A stretch of 64,000 nucleotides of DNA from sequence record LC494302.1; one strand, 5' to 3'. The position numbers and the translations under genes are program-made. This document shows positions 19,020 through 32,046 of this stretch, piece after piece; the first letter of the stretch is position 1, and the number at the start of each line of letters is the position of its first letter. This DNA comes from Escherichia phage SP27. Under the pieces are notes generated by a model, which had not been told where the DNA came from, did not search any database, and saw only the letters and a list, made by a program, of their open reading frames with translations.

Positions 19020-19064
19020 AATTCCTCCTTTATTCATTATACTATATTTAATACAAATAAGAAA
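19020..19064 (-). promoter_or_regulatory. conserved array promoter/leader cassette
   Basis: - strand TTTCTTATTTGTATTAAATATAGTATAATGAATAAAGGAGG; TATAAT -10-like box, no clear -35. Confidence 0.5.
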
Positions 19065-19083
19065 GCCAGTACAAAGTACTGGC
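19065..19083 (-). terminator. array hairpin terminator
   Basis: GCCAGTACTTTGTACTGGC then TTTCTTATTTG (- strand). Confidence 0.6.
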
Positions 19084-19097
19084 ATAGTTTTATAGTA

Positions 19098-20207
19098 TTA
19101 TTTCGGCATTGTAATTGCAGACCATGAGTTCGTGGTAATAGGACCTGGTACATACAAAAAAGAACCACAAGCATAAATTTGATTATTACCATCAAATACT
19201 ATACTAAAATGTGCACATGTGTATAATGATGATTTTTCTGGGTTGTAATTATCTAAAGTTAGTGTATTGGTGAATCTACTCAAACCACCTCCCGAACCAT
19301 TTCTACCAAATTCACCAGTACTGTATATCTTTCCTTCGGTTGTTGCGTACATATTAACATATGAAGTCGCACTTGATTTTGATATTTTATGTATCTTACT
19401 ATCAATAGTAGTGGAGTTAAATGCAAATGGATATACTTGTGTGTTCGTTGTAATACCGTTACCAAGTTGACCAATATACTGCCAACCTGCGTTGTATATA
19501 TTGCTGGCTGAATAAGCAAGAGTACCAGTACTGTTACCACCAAATAGTTTAACACTTGTTAACCTGCTTACTAGTGTAGTATACTGTCCTGGACTTACGC
19601 CAAGTGAACCATACCCACTGCTCCCGCAACCGAGAAGTTCATTATTTGATGTTAATATTAATGTGTTATTCTGTGTACCCAATATATCAAGAACTGTATT
19701 AGCTCCGGTATTAATAACTGAAACAAAAGTACTCTGAGCCGTGGAATACCCACCACCGAGTGAATAGTTACCATTCATGCCTCTACCATAAACAATCGAA
19801 CCACTAGCATCAACGTAGTGCATTGTATCTGCACCAATTGATATCATTTTAATATTAGATATATGTGGAAATGAAGAAGTAACATTCAAACCACCCAACG
19901 GAATCATAGTATTTCCTGTGCCTAATTGTGTGGTAACTCCATGCATTATGAATTCTTCACCCTTGAGATAAAGAATATTGTACGCACCAGCCCATGCATC
20001 AGTAACACCTTCTGAAATTAATATCCAAGTATTTCTTGTTGCTGTATTTTCAACGTTTAACTGCAAATACGTATTAACCCCACAACCATAAAGTGAGCCA
20101 TCGCCATAGAGGACGTACAAATTATCAAGACCGCACAGTACTTTCTTTATCTTTGGAGCTTCAGGTGCAATATTTCCGTACTTAACCATTCTAGCAAAAG
20201 GTAACAT
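19098..20207 (-). CDS. RCC1-repeat protein, family R
   Basis: MLPFARMVKYGNIAP start; GGAGG RBS overlapping upstream stop; motifs GSSGYGSLGV, GQLGNG. Confidence 0.8.
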   Translation of the reverse strand: MLPFARMVKYGNIAPEAPKIKKVLCGLDNLYVLYGDGSLYGCGVNTYLQLNVENTATRNTWILISEGVTDAWAGAYNILYLKGEEFIMHGVTTQLGTGNTMIPLGGLNVTSSFPHISNIKMISIGADTMHYVDASGSIVYGRGMNGNYSLGGGYSTAQSTFVSVINTGANTVLDILGTQNNTLILTSNNELLGCGSSGYGSLGVSPGQYTTLVSRLTSVKLFGGNSTGTLAYSASNIYNAGWQYIGQLGNGITTNTQVYPFAFNSTTIDSKIHKISKSSATSYVNMYATTEGKIYSTGEFGRNGSGGGLSRFTNTLTLDNYNPEKSSLYTCAHFSIVFDGNNQIYACGSFLYVPGPITTNSWSAITMPK

Positions 20208-20217
20208 AAATTCCTCC

Positions 20218-29593: not shown

Positions 29594-30796
29594 CTATTGT
29601 TGCCATAACTGCGATGGCATTAATGTTAGTGTAGTAATACTATAAGTGCCATCTGGCAATCTACCACCATTTCCATTCCAGCCACCACATGCATATAATT
29701 TATAATCTTTAGTAATTATTATGGTTCTGCTCCAATCTTTAGATGCCATAAGAACATTGTCATAACCACTACTTATTGCACTAAGATTAAAAATATTCCA
29801 AGTTCTAACTAATGTATTAGTTCCATTACCTTCTTGACCATATGAGTTAGCACCACTACTTCTAACATATGGTGCGTATTGTGCCATAGGTGCACCAATT
29901 GATGCATTTCCCATATTACTTGGACAAATAAAAGTACTGTACTTACTTACATCAACCGTGACCGATGTGTTCCTAATTGGTGTTAGCTGATTTACCGATG
30001 TAGTCGTACCATTACCAGCTTGTCCAGAACTGTTAGCCCCGCTATAATATACAGACCCACCAGTAGTAAACCACCAAGTAACATCGTATGTAGTACTAAT
30101 ATGTTCTACATTACTAATCACGAATTTGTTCAAATATACAACAGAACTACCACCACATCCACTTTCACCAAAGTTATCCTTACCACAAAACCATGCATCT
30201 TTATTTGATTTGATATAGTGCGTTCCTTGTAATGAACATGCCATATGTGTAACTTCACCCATATTAGTCATAACTGTGAGTGTAGGGATGGAATTTTTAT
30301 TCCCAGAGCCACATTCACCATTAGTATTTCTTCCACACGCAATTACTCTACCATCGGTTAATAATATTCTAGTACTTTCACCTATATATACACTCTTGAT
30401 CATATTAGCCATAACACCTATTTTATTAAATGCAACAGTAACATCAGTCCATGTTGTCAAATAACCATTAACAGGTGTTGCATCTCCATAATCAGAAAAT
30501 GCACCAACCGACCCAGTGTAGTATATTTTATTATCCAAATCAATCATCAATGAACCTTGAACACCAAGCCAAAAGGCTGCACAGTTCCTTGCAAGTACTG
30601 TAAATGACGAAACTGCTGCTGAATTCCCAAGACCAAATTGATAAAAGTTATTACTACCATAACCATATAAAGTATTAGTTGGGTTATGGAGATACATACA
30701 GTTTGTATAATGTTGTTGTAAAACATCTGAGAACTCTACAGGTTCTGGACCTGGTGCAATATTTGCGTACTTAACCATTCTTCCAAAAGGTAACAT
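29594..30796 (-). CDS. RCC1-repeat protein, family R
   Basis: MLPFGRMVKYANIAP start; motifs GSNNFYQFGLGN, GRNTNGECGSGN, GANSSGQAGNG. Confidence 0.8.
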   Translation of the reverse strand: MLPFGRMVKYANIAPGPEPVEFSDVLQQHYTNCMYLHNPTNTLYGYGSNNFYQFGLGNSAAVSSFTVLARNCAAFWLGVQGSLMIDLDNKIYYTGSVGAFSDYGDATPVNGYLTTWTDVTVAFNKIGVMANMIKSVYIGESTRILLTDGRVIACGRNTNGECGSGNKNSIPTLTVMTNMGEVTHMACSLQGTHYIKSNKDAWFCGKDNFGESGCGGSSVVYLNKFVISNVEHISTTYDVTWWFTTGGSVYYSGANSSGQAGNGTTTSVNQLTPIRNTSVTVDVSKYSTFICPSNMGNASIGAPMAQYAPYVRSSGANSYGQEGNGTNTLVRTWNIFNLSAISSGYDNVLMASKDWSRTIIITKDYKLYACGGWNGNGGRLPDGTYSITTLTLMPSQLWQQ

Positions 30797-30842
30797 ATTT
30801 CCCTCCTTTATTCATTATACTATATTTAATACAAAAAGAAAT
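30797..30842 (-). promoter_or_regulatory. conserved array promoter/leader cassette
   Basis: near-identical copy. Confidence 0.5.
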
Positions 30843-30861
30843 GCCAGTATCAAGTACTGGC
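30843..30861 (-). terminator. array hairpin terminator
   Basis: GCCAGTACTTGATACTGGC + U-tract. Confidence 0.6.
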
Positions 30862-30867
30862 ATAATA

Positions 30868-32046
30868 TTATCGGTTAAATTTAAAATCTGTTATGTGTGT
30901 CCATGTATGATTTAATGGGGTACTCATTGGTGTAAAGCCAGCAGGGTCTGACAAAGCTGTACCACGTGCGTACATAAATTGATTGCCAGTACAATCCATT
31001 ATAGCATAAGAACGTGTTGCTGTGCCACATTTGAACCCAACTGCACTACTTGGGGTCGGTAATACTTCAAATGTAGGTGCATTTGAACTACCACCCCCAT
31101 CTTTTGTTCCAGCTATGTACAGAACTCCATTAGTATCAATGATTAAGTTAGTCCAATATGCTTGTTCTCGACCAGCATAAAAATATGTTAAATCACCGGG
31201 TACAAATGGTAACGTTCCTTTATATATTGTGGTATTAACATTCACTGGTGCACCAGCTACACCCCATGAACTCATATAGTTTCTCCCACTTGCGTAGAAT
31301 GTAGTTCCTTTACCGTAAAGTATTAATGTTGCTTGACTTGTTCGCATTGCATTATATTCAAACTCAGGATCATCAGTAGCGTCCTTAAAAATCTGTGTCC
31401 ATGTTGTTATATTGCCAGTAGTTGTAACACCCATTTGATAATAATAATTATCACCAGTAGCATAGAATTCTTTAGGGCCAGTTTGTACAATTGCATTCCC
31501 ATTAGTTAACCAAAAATCTAATGTATTAGTCTTGATCTTGGTTGGTGTGTAATTCGCCACGGTATTTCCTTTTCCGAAATAACCATTAGCGTTATTTCCA
31601 TGACCCCATAAATCACCATTAGTTGTGCGTAGGAATAATGTACCAGTATTGAATCCAACTTTTTCTATAGTACTTATGTCAATACCAACAGTCGTGTACT
31701 TCGTTGTAAAATCTTGAAAAGTACTCCAATAATTAGATGAACCATTAAACATGGTTTGTCTACCAGTGTACTTCACTTTATTATCGTTAGTGATAAGTAA
31801 TGTCCCCCACACTGACGCGAACATTAACTTAACATTTTCCATAACAAAGTATGGCTTACCGTATGCTGACGCGGTAGTGTTTAAACCTAATAGTTGTCCA
31901 TCATTACTACAACCCCATACTTCGCCGTTATCCAAAAGCATCAACATAGTAGGTTTGCCGGATGATACATCCAAAAAGAAATCTTTTGGTGTTGGTACAC
32001 CAGGTACAATATTTCCGTACTTAACCATTCTTGTAAAAGGTAACAT
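30868..32046 (-). CDS. RCC1-repeat protein, family R (first gene of the array)
   Basis: true start MLPFTRM at 32046 with GGAGGG RBS; motifs GHGNNANGYFGKGN. Confidence 0.8.
   Translation of the reverse strand: MLPFTRMVKYGNIVPGVPTPKDFFLDVSSGKPTMLMLLDNGEVWGCSNDGQLLGLNTTASAYGKPYFVMENVKLMFASVWGTLLITNDNKVKYTGRQTMFNGSSNYWSTFQDFTTKYTTVGIDISTIEKVGFNTGTLFLRTTNGDLWGHGNNANGYFGKGNTVANYTPTKIKTNTLDFWLTNGNAIVQTGPKEFYATGDNYYYQMGVTTTGNITTWTQIFKDATDDPEFEYNAMRTSQATLILYGKGTTFYASGRNYMSSWGVAGAPVNVNTTIYKGTLPFVPGDLTYFYAGREQAYWTNLIIDTNGVLYIAGTKDGGGSSNAPTFEVLPTPSSAVGFKCGTATRSYAIMDCTGNQFMYARGTALSDPAGFTPMSTPLNHTWTHITDFKFNR

What the first reader, a model, noticed from the sequence alone, without database searches (positions are those of the whole stretch)
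19020..32046. Near-identical cassette (hairpin + leader + RBS + first 15 codons) repeated in front of array members
Nine intergenic gaps carry almost the same sequence on the minus strand: GCCAGTAC-N4-GTACTGGC hairpin, U-rich tract, TTTGTATTAAATATAGTATAATGAATAAAGGAGG, then ATG TTA CCT TTT GSA AGA ATG encoding MLPF(A/G)RMVKYGNI(A)P. Identity drops sharply after codon 15. This points to concerted evolution or recombination at a portable 5' module, or a functional N-terminal tag for targeting or attachment. The promoter has a TATAAT-like box but no recognisable -35 and is not an exact T4 late TATAAATA.
Basis: seen in the sequence. Interest (0 to 1): 0.8.

Follow-up and report, generated by a model that had tools for sequence, protein, structure and literature searches.

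The report
Shared docking tag on phage lectins
Twelve neighbouring genes of a giant E. coli virus all begin with the same 12-15 amino acids, and most sit behind the same stop-and-start transcription signal; this short peptide most likely plugs a changeable set of sugar-binding-type proteins onto the virus particle, though that attachment has not been shown.

Summary
The window comes from a 121Q/phAPEC6-like jumbo coliphage (Asteriusvirus). Bases 17,822-32,081 of the minus strand hold a tandem array of 12 genes, all starting MLPF(G/A/T/V)RM(V/M/I/L)(K/N/M)YGN. Nine are preceded by a near-identical cassette: a terminator hairpin with a U-tract, the promoter-like ATTAAATATAGTATAAT, and an AAGGAGG ribosome-binding site.

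Nucleotide identity is 0.81-0.88 through codon about 13 and then falls to about 0.3.

Eleven products are RCC1-type 7-bladed propellers. One is an unrelated glycine-rich protein whose model resembles phage tail-fibre and "brush" proteins.

The peptide is a portable tag:
- it lies outside the predicted fold in both models;
- it is kept through synonymous codons in related phages;
- it occurs on at least 9 unrelated cargo families (RCC1, Kelch, ConA-like lectin and others) in about 15 jumbo-phage genomes, including operon-type arrays with no cassette;
- it evolves in concert within each genome.

Arrays of close relatives differ by whole gene units, with breakpoints in the cassette or tag.

The conserved promoter core is TAAATA, close to the phage's own T4-type late motif. 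The TATAAT box is not conserved.

Best reading (inferred): a docking peptide that mounts interchangeable adhesin-like modules on the virion, combined with PeSL-like regulatory cassettes. This is a new variant of known principles.

The parts
32047..32081 (-). Promoter and ribosome-binding site of the first gene g1 (GGGGTAAATATGATATAATGAATAAGGAGGG). There is no upstream hairpin.
30868..32046 (-). g1: tagged RCC1-like propeller, 392 aa, starting MLPFTRMVKYGNIVP. It has no counterpart in phAPEC6 or 121Q.
30797..30863 (-). Cassette: terminator hairpin ATGCCAGTA-CTTGA-TACTGGCAT, U-tract, ATTAAATATAGTATAAT and AAGGAGG.
29594..30796 (-). g2: tagged RCC1-like propeller, 400 aa.
28476..29585 (-). g3: tagged RCC1-like propeller, 369 aa. 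It has no cassette; its ribosome-binding site overlaps the g2 stop codon, so it is co-transcribed or translationally coupled.
28406..28469 (-). Cassette: hairpin GCCAGTAC-AGA-GTACTGGC; the promoter box reads TATAAC here.
27266..28405 (-). g4: tagged RCC1-like propeller, 379 aa.
27195..27259 (-). Cassette: hairpin GCCAGTAC-ACT-GTACTGGC.
26046..27194 (-). g5: tagged RCC1-like propeller, 382 aa.
25975..26039 (-). Cassette: hairpin GCCAGTA-CTTGA-TACTGGC. The collinear match with phAPEC6 ends here, at 26041.
24787..25974 (-). g6: tagged RCC1-like propeller, 395 aa.
24716..24780 (-). Cassette: hairpin AGCCAGTAC-TGA-GTACTGGCT.
23978..24715 (-). g7: tagged glycine-rich protein, 245 aa, not an RCC1 protein. 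It matches phrog_4474 and relatives carrying PF21722. Its model resembles the Pam3 tail fibre and the Bxb1 tail wing brush.
23906..23972 (-). Cassette: hairpin AGGCCAGTA-CTTGA-TACTGGCTT.
22754..23905 (-). g8: tagged RCC1-like propeller, 383 aa, 100% identical to phAPEC6 gp005, a protein found in virions by mass spectrometry.
22682..22747 (-). Cassette: hairpin GCCAGTAC-TCAA-GTACTGGC. This is the only copy with a 4-nt loop.
21506..22681 (-). g9: tagged RCC1-like 7-bladed propeller, 391 aa. The AlphaFold2 model has pLDDT 82 and TM 0.75-0.80 to UVR8. It corresponds to phAPEC6 gp006.
21398..21465 (-). Cassette: hairpin AATGCCAGTA-CTTGA-TACTGGCATT.
20588..21397 (-). g10: tagged RCC1-like protein cut short at 269 aa by a frameshift. 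It corresponds to phAPEC6 gp007, which was found in virions.
20208..20587 (-). Out-of-frame remainder of g10. It encodes further RCC1 repeats (…GQLGNG…NGKLYYTG…) and ends just before the g11 ribosome-binding site.
19098..20207 (-). g11: tagged RCC1-like propeller, 369 aa. It has no cassette, only a ribosome-binding site.
19020..19083 (-). Cassette: hairpin GCCAGTAC-TTT-GTACTGGC, free energy -12.4 kcal/mol.
17850..19019 (-). g12: tagged RCC1-like propeller, 389 aa, starting MLPFGRMLKYGNIKP.
17822..17844 (-). Terminal terminator of the array: ATGCCAGTGC-CTT-GTACTGGCAT followed by T7, free energy -14.8 kcal/mol.

Best explanation
The finding is the repeated 5' module of a 12-gene tandem array in a 121Q/phAPEC6-like jumbo coliphage.

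Anatomy (shown). The array holds ten transcription units: g1, g2-g3, g4, g5, g6, g7, g8, g9, g10-g11 and g12.
- Each unit ends in an intrinsic terminator, a GCCAGTA(C)/(G)TACTGGC stem followed by a U-tract.
- A promoter-like element, ATTAAATATAGTATAAT, follows about ten bases after the stem, directly downstream of the U-tract.
- A strong ribosome-binding site, AAGGAGG, comes next.
- The reading frame then opens with M-L-P-F-x-R-M-V-K-Y-G-N-(I-A-P).

The peptide is a portable tag (shown). It is a flexible N-terminal extension outside the folded cargo. It is under protein-level selection. It is fused to at least nine unrelated cargo families in about 15 jumbo-phage genomes. Its variable positions 5-9 are homogeneous within a genome and differ between lineages.

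Function (inferred). The tag is a docking peptide that inserts into one common site on the virion. That site is most likely part of the external fibre or 'hair' apparatus. The particle would then display a panel of interchangeable lectin-like or adhesin-like heads: RCC1 and Kelch propellers, ConA-like domains and a glycine-rich fibre-tip domain.

Promoter (inferred). It is a variant of the phage's T4-type late promoter, with core TAAATA, read by the phage's gp55-like sigma factor.

Recombination (partly shown). The roughly 110 nt of near-identical cassette plus tag DNA in front of most genes serves as a substrate for homologous recombination. This homogenises the tags and duplicates, deletes, replaces and reorders whole gene units, as PeSL cassettes do in T4-like phages.
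For: Anatomy. Hairpin free energies are -10 to -14.8 kcal/mol, z -3.5 to -5.

Origin: 97.5% identity to phAPEC6; the cassette occurs in 43 phage records at 5-16 copies per Asteriusvirus genome.

Cargo:
- Eleven of the 12 genes are RCC1-like. The g9 model is a 7-bladed propeller.
- Other tagged cargos include Laminin_G_3/ConA-like lectin domains, Kelch propellers and a 'virion structural protein' PHROG family.

Tag lies outside the fold: pLDDT is 48-67 for residues 1-18 in both models. PDB profile matches start at position 18 or later.

Protein-level selection: conserved residues are encoded by varied synonymous codons in 7t3 and fENko-Kae01. The tag is kept in arrays without a cassette.

Breadth: 111 tagged reading frames, 107 of them at least 100 aa, forming 9 cargo families. 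Almost all lie on contigs of 295-378 kb. Xanthomonas phage XaC1 has the variant MFPIPIISxYGN.

Concerted evolution:
- Tag identity is 0.84 within a genome and 0.64 between lineages.
- For 59 of 80 proteins the cargo is closer to a foreign protein than to any paralogue in the same genome.
- Among those 59, the tag is still closer to the own-genome paralogue in 44 cases, to the foreign protein in 9, with 6 ties.
- In the window the tag shares non-preferred codons.

Unit shuffling with breakpoints in the cassette or tag.

Virion presence: six phAPEC6 orthologues were detected by mass spectrometry in CsCl-purified virions, which carry unassigned hairy fibres on tail and capsid (PMC7247149). GAP32 gp001 was also found in virions (PMC5259590).

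Late-promoter reading: phAPEC6 structural genes are preceded by (T)ATAAATA or ACTAAATA, and that genome encodes a late sigma factor. TAAATA, but not TATAAT, is conserved in the cassettes of other lineages.

Precedent: short N-terminal 'conserved peptides', as short as 7 aa and specific to each phage group, dock secondary receptor-binding proteins, including in ΦK64-1 and RaK2 (PMC6872550). This was validated experimentally (PMC13352976).
Against: - No partner protein or docking site has been identified, and no experiment locates these proteins on the particle.
- The phAPEC6 authors suggested an internal, DNA-organising role.
- Mass-spectrometry peptide counts are low, 1-4 per protein.
- Phage CBB has tail hairs but, according to its authors, no RCC1 homologue. 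The hairs themselves are therefore not made of these proteins.
- Whether the tag is kept in the mature proteins is unknown.
- The promoter matches TATAAATA at only 6 of 8 positions, a good TATAAT lies 3 bases downstream, and neither start sites nor timing have been measured.
- Similarity segments that end in the cassettes are expected to some degree, simply because the cassettes are the only sequence all units share.
- Glycan binding by the cargos is inferred from fold class only.
Confidence: 0.6

Rival explanations
1. The tag is a capsid-targeting sequence, like the CTS of the T4 internal proteins. It would direct the proteins into the prohead core, so that they are packaged with the DNA (inner body) and perhaps injected into the host. 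The array would then be a polymorphic internal-protein locus.
For: - The architecture is strikingly similar to the T-even internal-protein loci: small arrays of diverse genes share an N-terminal targeting peptide and are flanked by promoter and stem-loop elements (PMC2839356).
- The proteins are in virions, phAPEC6 has an inner body with unassigned components, and the authors proposed these proteins for it.
- phAPEC6 encodes a T4 gp21-like prohead protease.
Against: - No conserved protease site follows the tag. There is no Glu in the tag, and an L/I-x-E motif within the next 10 residues occurs in only 2-3 of the 12 genes.
- The cargos are large and weakly charged: K+R 5-7%, D+E 5-8%, pI 5-9, and 38-49% Gly/Ser/Thr/Asn.
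- Their folds are propeller, ConA-like and fibre-tip types, typical of external binding modules.
Confidence: 0.15
2. The peptide has no function of its own. The first 45 coding bases are carried along with a regulatory cassette that spreads by gene conversion, or they are conserved as an mRNA-level signal for translation initiation or regulation.
For: - In the window, codons 2, 3, 4 and 6 are invariant at nucleotide level, and non-preferred codons are shared.
- Nucleotide identity of the tag is highest in the lineage where cassettes precede nearly every gene.
- Recombination joints lie in the ribosome-binding site and tag.
Against: - In 7t3 and fENko-Kae01 the amino acids are conserved while synonymous positions vary freely.
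- g3, g11 and whole arrays in Kaldavass and several IMG/VR contigs keep the tag without any cassette.
- The core M-x-P-x5-6-Y-G-N survives as far as a Xanthomonas phage.
Confidence: 0.07
3. The tag is a recognition motif for a phage-encoded assembly chaperone, a modifying enzyme or a protease, rather than the structural contact with the virion. Under this reading it controls quality or timing of assembly.
For: - The tag is a short flexible N-terminal peptide with an invariant P-F…Y-G-N core on unrelated folds.
- Many phage fibre proteins need dedicated chaperones (general knowledge).
Against: - No candidate partner gene lies in or beside the array. The flanks are small plus-strand genes.
- Lineage-specific co-variation is equally expected for any partner, so it does not discriminate.
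- Known fibre chaperones usually act on C-terminal domains (general knowledge).
Confidence: 0.1
4. This rival concerns the promoter only. The functional element would be the sigma-70-type -10 box TATAAT, with an AT-rich upstream region and no -35, giving host-polymerase (early or middle) transcription rather than late transcription.
For: - A perfect TATAAT lies about 12 nt upstream of the ribosome-binding site in 8 of the 9 cassettes (the ninth reads TATAAC) and in the g1 promoter.
- PeSL cassettes of T4-like phages carry sigma-70 promoters.
Against: - There is no -35 box and no TG extension.
- TATAAT is not conserved in the cassettes of other lineages, whereas TAAATA is.
- Structural genes of phAPEC6 carry ATAAATA-type motifs.
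- The products are virion proteins.
- The array is the only minus-strand block in a region of small plus-strand, early-type genes.
Confidence: 0.2

Closest known systems
N-terminal 'conserved (docking) peptides' of secondary receptor-binding proteins in branched tail-fibre systems (KP32/KP34/K11, K1E/K1-5/SP6, Menlow, ΦK64-1/RaK2; Latka et al. 2019, PMC6872550; validated in PMC13352976)
   Same: - A short N-terminal peptide (7-30 aa) is shared by several otherwise unrelated virion proteins of one phage.
- It is specific to each phage group.
- It is followed by a variable binding domain and allows modular exchange of specificity.
- It also occurs in the related jumbo phages ΦK64-1 and RaK2.
   Different: - Here one tag is shared by 12-16 genes in a single tandem array.
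- The cargos are monomer-type propeller, lectin and glycine-rich domains rather than trimeric depolymerase spikes.
- No T4gp10-like branching partner has been identified.
- Docking is not demonstrated.
- The tag is physically linked to a repeated terminator-promoter cassette.
PeSL (promoter-early stem-loop) cassettes of T4-like phages (Arbiol et al. 2010, PMC2839356; Comeau et al. 2014, PMC4122927)
   Same: - Small intergenic composite of a terminator stem-loop plus a promoter, repeated many times.
- It flanks variable genes.
- Insertions, deletions and replacements between close relatives have their ends in the repeats.
   Different: - PeSL promoters match the sigma-70 consensus (early) and their stems are polyG/polyC.
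- Here there is no -35 box, the core is late-like TAAATA, and the stem is the palindrome GCCAGTAC.
- The repeat continues through the ribosome-binding site into 12-15 codons.
- The flanked genes are one functional class (tagged virion proteins), not unrelated orphan genes.
Internal-protein (IP) loci and capsid-targeting sequence (CTS) of T-even phages
   Same: - Arrays of polymorphic genes share a conserved N-terminal peptide of about 10 aa that directs incorporation into the virion.
- They are flanked by promoter and stem-loop elements thought to confine shuffling to the locus.
   Different: - The CTS ends in an L/I-x-E site for the gp21 protease and is removed; no such site is present here.
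- T4 internal proteins are small and highly charged; these cargos are 17-75 kDa, weakly charged, and have lectin or fibre-type folds.
RCC1-like repeat beta-propellers (Pfam PF00415, PF13540, PF25390), annotated in these phages as 'regulator of chromosome condensation' or 'DNA condensation protein'
   Same: Eleven of the 12 proteins have RCC1 repeats. The g9 model is a 7-bladed propeller with TM 0.75-0.80 to UVR8, RPGR and RCC1.
   Different: Nothing here supports chromatin- or Ran-related activity. The name reflects fold homology only. The same tag on Kelch, ConA-like and fibre-tip domains points to a surface-binding role.

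Membership tests
PeSL regulatory cassette (T4-like phages) | Intergenic composite of a stem-loop terminator immediately followed by a promoter, in many copies | tested here: met
   There are 9 cassettes plus a terminal hairpin. Terminator-like sites number 22 against 6.4 expected. The promoter-like 15-mer is exact in 8 copies and confined to the array.
PeSL regulatory cassette (T4-like phages) | Promoter identical to the sigma-70 consensus (-35 TTGACA, -10 TATAAT, AT-rich UP element), i.e. early | tested here: not met
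   There is no -35 box; the best candidate is CTGGCA/CTGGCT, matching 3-4 of 6 positions. The element conserved across lineages is TAAATA, not TATAAT.
PeSL regulatory cassette (T4-like phages) | Differences between close relatives are insertions, deletions or replacements bounded by the repeats | tested here: met
   The window, phAPEC6 and 121Q arrays hold 12, 16 and at least 11 tagged genes. Units are missing, replaced or reordered. Similarity segments end at 26041, 25924-25931, 27226-27261, 28473, 29595, 30871 and 31998, all within the cassette or tag.
PeSL regulatory cassette (T4-like phages) | Recombination between copies yields excised mini-circles | not testable with these tools
   This needs inverse PCR on infected cells or virion DNA.
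N-terminal docking ('conserved') peptide of secondary receptor-binding proteins | Short N-terminal sequence shared by several virion proteins of one phage group and different in other groups | tested here: met
   Consensus per genome: MLPFxRMVKYGNI in the window (position 5 varies, mostly G or A) and MLPFARMVKYGNI in 121Q and phAPEC6; MIPFARISKYGN, MIPFARIGVYGN, MLPFPRLIEYGN, MLPFSIxxQYGN and MFPIPIISxYGN in other lineages.
N-terminal docking ('conserved') peptide of secondary receptor-binding proteins | The peptide is separate from, and followed by, a variable receptor-binding or enzymatic domain | tested here: met
   The tag has low confidence and lies outside the fold in two models. There are 9 cargo families with lectin, propeller or fibre-tip folds. 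No depolymerase domain was found.
N-terminal docking ('conserved') peptide of secondary receptor-binding proteins | A partner protein with a branching or docking domain (such as a T4gp10-like domain) binds the peptide | not tested
N-terminal docking ('conserved') peptide of secondary receptor-binding proteins | The proteins are components of the virion tail apparatus | tested here: inconclusive
   The literature shows six orthologues in CsCl-purified phAPEC6 virions and GAP32 gp001 in virions. Their location on the particle is unknown.
T4-type capsid-targeting sequence (internal proteins) | N-terminal peptide of about 10 aa shared by diverse proteins encoded in small polymorphic loci | tested here: met
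T4-type capsid-targeting sequence (internal proteins) | The peptide ends in a prohead-protease site (L/I-x-E) and is removed | tested here: not met
   No Glu occurs in the tag, and no conserved L/I-x-E follows it in the 12 sequences. Cleavage itself cannot be tested here.
T4-type capsid-targeting sequence (internal proteins) | Small, highly charged cargo packaged inside the head | tested here: not met
   The cargos are 245-400 aa, with K+R 5-7%, D+E 5-8% and pI 5.1-9.2. Location in the particle was not tested.
RCC1-like repeat beta-propeller | RCC1 repeat profile matches and a 7-bladed propeller fold | tested here: met
   PF00415 or PF13540 score above the gathering threshold in 9 of the 11 propeller genes. 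g10 matches PF25390 only, and g12 falls just below threshold for PF00415 (21.0 against 21.7 bits). The g9 model has TM 0.75-0.80 to UVR8. g7 is not a member.
T4-type late promoter (gp55-dependent, TATAAATA) | TATAAATA-like -10 element with no -35 box, upstream of virion genes | tested here: inconclusive
   The cassette has ATTAAATA, matching 6 of 8 positions with the TAAATA core intact. phAPEC6 structural genes show TATAAATA, ATAAATA or ACTAAATA. TAAATA is conserved in cassettes of other lineages. No start-site data exist.
T4-type late promoter (gp55-dependent, TATAAATA) | The genome encodes a gp55-like late sigma factor | tested here: met
   phAPEC6 gp237c is annotated 'Sigma factor for late transcription'. 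CBB has a gp55-like factor. This was seen in relatives; the gene is not within this window.

The most novel reading that the evidence does not exclude
Rak2/121Q-type jumbo phages may carry a general plug-and-play display system. In this reading, a single docking site on the particle (for example on the so far unassigned 'hairy' fibres of tail and capsid) accepts any protein that begins with the 12-residue tag M-Φ-P-Φ-x5-Y-G-N. Each genome keeps its tags matched to its own docking site. The phage changes what it sticks to by shuffling lectin-type cargo genes through recombination at the cassette and tag. The tag would then be sufficient to mount foreign proteins on these virions.
Probability: 0.35. 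Interest if true: 0.75.

Novelty: new variant of a known kind. Interest (0 to 1): 0.6.

Why it matters
- It reassigns a large, conspicuous and widely mis-annotated gene family. The 'regulator of chromosome condensation' or 'DNA condensation' proteins, present at 5-16 copies per genome in many jumbo coliphages, would become virion-attached binding modules.
- It gives a 12-residue signature that finds all members, whatever their fold.
- It offers a concrete handle on the unexplained hairy appendages of phAPEC6-type particles and on how jumbo phages broaden adhesion or host range.
- It extends the docking-peptide principle and the PeSL principle, fused into one module, to a new phage group.
- If the tag is sufficient for incorporation, it would be a simple tool for displaying proteins on very large phage particles.

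Tried and rejected
- **Literal hairpin pattern.** GCCAGTAC-N4-GTACTGGC matched only once because loop length varies from 3 to 5 nt. The terminator scan resolved this.
- **Tag-only profile search.** I aligned twelve 36-aa fragments with 6 full-length proteins and searched 1.84 billion representatives. Sequence weighting turned it into a 356-position RCC1 profile, and it returned generic giant RCC1 proteins. It was uninformative and used the only job. A degenerate DNA pattern scan of IMG/VR replaced it.
- **Sequence search of g7 against PDB.** Nothing was found. Fold searches were needed instead.
- **Rfam.** No known RNA family matched in the array.
- **Literature.**
  - The string MLPFGRM appears in no paper.
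  - The phAPEC6, CBB, fEgEco12 and UE-S1 papers do not describe the tag or the cassette.
  - phAPEC6 supplementary peptide lists are not held.
  - A search for Asteriusvirus transcriptomics returned only unrelated papers.
- **tblastn with a Kaldavass lectin-like cargo.** This aimed to find tagged genes in CBB, GAP32 and RaK2 and gave no such hits.
- **Rejected: the tag is the N-terminal 'velcro' strand closing the propeller.**
  - It lies outside the fold in the model.
  - PDB profile matches start at residue 18 or later.
  - It also occurs on non-propeller cargos.
- **Rejected: the tag is a secretion signal.** It has no hydrophobic core (by inspection).
- **Rejected: DNA-condensation function.** It rests only on the fold name, and the proteins are weakly charged.

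Full report

Yes. Chance expectation is 0.01.

Reading upstream and downstream of each start shows three classes (alignment A1):
- Nine genes (g2, g4, g5, g6, g7, g8, g9, g10, g12) are preceded by the full cassette.
- Two genes (g3, g11) have only the ribosome-binding site and tag.
- The first gene (g1) has a diverged promoter, GGGGTAAATATGATATAAT, and no hairpin.

The 33-mer TTGTATTAAATATAGTATAATGAATAAAGGAGG is exact in seven cassettes and has 2-3 mismatches in two. The 15-mer TAAATATAGTATAAT occurs nowhere else in the 64-kb window at one mismatch or fewer.

The hairpin has 7-8 core pairs, GCCAGTA(C)/(G)TACTGGC, and a loop of 3, 4 or 5 nt. This explains why the literal N4 pattern matched only once. 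A simple terminator scan finds one at each of the nine cassettes plus a tenth just after g12, at 17822-17844. In total there are 22 terminator-like sites against 6.4 expected. As RNA the hairpins fold at -10 to -14.8 kcal/mol, z -3.5 to -5.

Ungapped nucleotide identity is 0.88, 0.87 and 0.81 for positions -5 to +39. It falls to 0.40 in the next bin and then to 0.25-0.36. The eleven propeller proteins are 19-34% identical to g9, yet 9 of the 12 invariant alignment columns lie within residues 1-15.

**2. What is the locus?**

The window is 97.5% identical over the array to Escherichia phage vB_EcoM_phAPEC6 and is closely related to 121Q (genus Asteriusvirus, genomes of about 350 kb). The array is the only minus-strand block among small plus-strand genes.

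Eleven products are RCC1-like repeat proteins. The AlphaFold2 model of g9 is a 7-bladed propeller with pLDDT 82 and TM 0.75-0.80 to UVR8, RPGR and RCC1.

g7 (245 aa) is unrelated. It is a glycine-rich protein matching phrog_4474, and some of its relatives carry PF21722. Its model (pLDDT 93) is closest to three phage appendage proteins and then to the ALK glycine-rich domain:

Bxb1 gp33 is an accessory external appendage held on the tail through another protein (PMC12646305).

The array and the virion association of its products are already in the literature:
- phAPEC6 'encodes eleven RCC1-like proteins'. Six of them (gp003, 005, 006, 007, 009, 010) were detected by mass spectrometry in CsCl-purified virions.
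- Those virions carry unassigned hairy fibres on tail and capsid (PMC7247149).
- GAP32 gp001 is also a virion protein, and multiple copies in 121Q and PBECO4 were noted earlier (PMC5259590).

None of the papers I could read mentions the shared N-terminus or the cassette. Some GenBank records do annotate 'terminator', 'repeat_region' or 'ribosome_binding_site' at these positions.

**3. The peptide is a portable, selected tag.**

(a) *It lies outside the fold.* In both models residues 1-18 have pLDDT 48-67, against 85-98 for the body. Profile matches of the family to solved RCC1 structures begin at position 18 or later.

(b) *It does not depend on the cassette.*
- g3 and g11 keep it.
- In Erwinia phage Kaldavass seven consecutive genes separated by about 10 nt all start MLPFP…YG(N/V).
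- Across all loci only 44 of 111 tagged reading frames have an upstream terminator hairpin.

(c) *Selection acts on the protein.* In Salmonella phage 7t3 and Klebsiella phage fENko-Kae01 the conserved residues are encoded by varied synonymous codons: Pro3 by CCA/CCG/CCT, Phe4 by TTT/TTC, Arg6 by AGA/AGG, Tyr10 by TAT/TAC, and Gly11 by all four codons.

(d) *It is fused to unrelated cargos.* A degenerate DNA pattern (GGAG, a gap, then ATG-HTN-CCN-TTY-N15-TAY-GGN-AAY) hit 23 stretches of IMG/VR, nearly all on contigs of 295-378 kb. A protein-level scan of all loci found 111 tagged reading frames. The 107 that are at least 100 aa form 9 families once the tag is removed (BLAST E<1e-5). The families include:
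- RCC1 propellers, Kelch propellers and an RCC1+Kelch fusion;
- several Laminin_G_3/ConA-like lectin domains;
- a 'virion structural protein' PHROG family;
- the glycine-rich family.

Xanthomonas phage XaC1 has the variant MFPIPIISxYGN. The universal core is M-Φ-P-Φ-x5-Y-G-N.

**4. Concerted evolution and unit shuffling.**

The variable tag positions are uniform within a genome and differ between lineages:
- MLPFxRMVKYGNI in the window, where position 5 varies (mostly G or A), and MLPFARMVKYGNI in 121Q and phAPEC6;
- MIPFARISKYGN;
- MIPFARIGVYGN;
- MLPFPRLIEYGN;
- MLPFSIxxQYGN.

Mean tag identity is 0.84 within genomes and 0.64 between lineages. For 59 of 80 proteins the cargo is closer to a protein of another lineage than to any paralogue in its own genome. 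The paralogues are therefore older than the lineages. Even so, the tag is closer to the own-genome paralogue in 44 of those cases, to the foreign protein in 9, with 6 ties. This pattern requires gene conversion of the 5' module, co-evolution with a genome-specific partner, or both.

Nucleotide-level homogenisation is evident in the window lineage:
- Codons 2, 3, 4 and 6 are invariant in all 12 genes.
- The tag uses codons that are uncommon in the gene bodies: CCT (27% of Pro codons in the bodies), TAC (27% of Tyr), GGG/GGA (30% of Gly) and AAG (34% of Lys).
- Nucleotide identity of codons 1-12 is 0.90-0.94 in the three Asteriusvirus arrays and 0.69-0.81 in seven of the ten other genomes measured; two small samples (3 and 4 genes) reach 0.91. 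Cassettes precede nearly every gene in Asteriusvirus.

Close relatives differ by whole units:
- The window has 12 tagged genes and phAPEC6 has 16, several of them unannotated.
- g7-g12 are 99.5-100% identical to, and collinear with, phAPEC6 units 10-15.
- g1 has no counterpart.
- g2 and g3 are in the opposite order.
- g5 corresponds to the first phAPEC6 unit.
- Nucleotide similarity segments end at 26041, 25924-25931, 27226-27261, 27147, 28473, 28362, 29595, 29546, 30871 and 31998. Every end lies inside a cassette or tag.
- The g2-g3 joint, which has no cassette, lies in the ribosome-binding site and tag itself.

**5. The regulatory part.**

The hairpin with its U-tract is a standard intrinsic terminator for the upstream gene. 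In related lineages the stem changes by paired substitutions: GCCAGTAC/GTACTGGC, GACAGTAC/GTACTGTC, GCTAGTAC/GTACTAGC and GTCAGTAC/GTACTGAC. In other lineages it is replaced by unrelated GC-rich stems. Selection is therefore on the structure.

Three results point elsewhere:
- Structural genes of phAPEC6 (major capsid protein, scaffold/protease, portal neighbours, baseplate and fibre genes) are preceded by TATAAATA, ATAAATA or ACTAAATA. That genome encodes a late sigma factor. The same motif class was reported for CBB and GAP32.
- The cassette contains ATTAAATA, a 6-of-8 match with the TAAATA core intact.
- In cassettes of other lineages the sequence after the terminator is GGGTAAATAC… or GTTAAATA…. 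These keep TAAATA but not TATAAT.

I therefore read the cassette as terminator plus variant late promoter plus strong ribosome-binding site. Timing and start sites remain unmeasured.

**6. How it most likely works.**

Shown:
- the anatomy of the module;
- the portability of the tag and protein-level selection on it;
- concerted evolution within genomes;
- unit-wise mosaicism.

From the literature:
- the products are in virions.

Inferred:
- the tag is a docking peptide that becomes ordered on binding a common site of the particle;
- the phage thereby mounts a panel of interchangeable binding heads.

I favour an external location for four reasons:
- Every cargo class is of a surface-binding type: propellers, ConA-like lectin domains and a fibre-tip or 'brush' glycine-rich domain.
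- The proteins are weakly charged and rich in Gly/Ser/Thr/Asn, at 38-49%.
- phAPEC6 has unassigned external fibres.
- There is a direct precedent. Short N-terminal 'conserved peptides', as short as 7 residues and specific to each phage group, dock secondary receptor-binding proteins onto a primary one. This includes the related jumbo phages ΦK64-1 and RaK2 (PMC6872550) and has been validated experimentally (PMC13352976).

The main rival is a T4-type capsid-targeting sequence. The T-even internal-protein loci look very similar in architecture. However, no conserved protease site follows the tag, and the cargos do not resemble internal proteins.

A purely nucleotide-level explanation is contradicted by the synonymous variation and by the arrays that lack cassettes.

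**7. Comparison and novelty.**

The module combines two known principles: a docking or targeting peptide and a PeSL-like terminator-promoter repeat.
- It fails the PeSL definition on promoter type and stem composition.
- It cannot yet be filed as a receptor-binding-protein docking peptide, because partner and location are untested.
- It fails the CTS definition on the cleavage site.

It is therefore a new variant of known kinds. I found it undescribed in the literature I could search. Its practical consequence is that the 'chromosome condensation' annotation of these genes is probably a misnomer.

**8. Limits.**
- There are no expression data, no partner protein and no localisation.
- Glycan binding is inferred from fold class only.
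- The cargo-family count depends on a BLAST threshold.
- Breakpoints falling in repeats are partly expected by construction.
- The one exhaustive profile search was wasted on a badly weighted alignment.

Noticed in passing
window 20208-21397 (minus strand): g10 is a frameshifted RCC1 gene. The tagged reading frame stops after 269 aa, and the 380-nt 'gap' before g11 encodes the remaining RCC1 repeats in another frame (…GQLGNG…NGKLYYTG…LPQI*). The same break is present in phAPEC6 (gp007, with the small gp008 in the gap) and in 121Q. The truncated product was detected in phAPEC6 virions (3 peptides, 17.5% coverage). It could be a tolerated pseudogene or a programmed frameshift.
   Followed up: partly
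proteins P0005-P0036 and P0061 (relatives of g7 from other phages): Homologues of the glycine-rich cargo in other phage groups start with a different recurring N-terminus, such as MLELL…, MIELLAISG…, MLETLL… or MFEMML…. Examples are Salmonella phage PVP-SE1 gp19 and 150-kb E. coli and Plesiomonas contigs. A few start MLPFPI…. This suggests that other phage families use their own N-terminal tags on the same cargo.
   Followed up: no
L001/L002 (phAPEC6 MK817115, record 348957-352598 and 1-14189): phAPEC6 has 16 tagged genes, but its annotation lists fewer. Tagged reading frames starting at L001 positions 23237, 20806 and 17177 are unannotated. The glycine-rich gene (start 15915) is represented only by a 303-nt fragment, gp004. 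Product names such as 'S-layer protein' and 'Ig domain-containing protein' on gp005 and gp009 look arbitrary.
   Followed up: partly
cassettes, e.g. window 19020-19040; proteins P0121, P0002: The cassette contains an ATG inside TATAATGAATAAAGGAGG. Gene callers sometimes start there, giving artefactual N-termini such as MNKGGIMLPF… or MNKGGNKIEY…. The mechanical ORF list likewise extends five genes upstream of the true start (for example 17850-19085, 27266-28567).
   Followed up: yes
window 32050-32150: The region between g1 (minus strand) and the first plus-strand gene (32149) is divergent. It carries a good sigma-70-like promoter on the plus strand (TTGACA-17-TACTAT, 32095-32123), back to back with the array's first promoter. 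This would fit early genes leaving in one direction and the late array in the other.
   Followed up: no
L030 (Xanthomonas phage XaC1, OR258281, 345037-348560): A 349-kb Xanthomonas phage has three adjacent RCC1-like genes starting MFPIPIIS(S/K/Q)… The tag system therefore reaches beyond enterobacterial hosts. One of the three (MFPIPIISSLRV) has lost the YGN motif.
   Followed up: partly
L004 (Klebsiella phage fENko-Kae01) and L003 (Salmonella phage 7t3): fENko-Kae01, reported as flagellum-dependent, and 7t3 share nearly identical tagged genes. Several are truncated or split in one phage relative to the other: 7t3_0128 is 60 aa against ENKO_520c at 373 aa, and ENKO_523c is 114 aa against 7t3_0126 at 233 aa. 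Array members are frequently inactivated.
   Followed up: no
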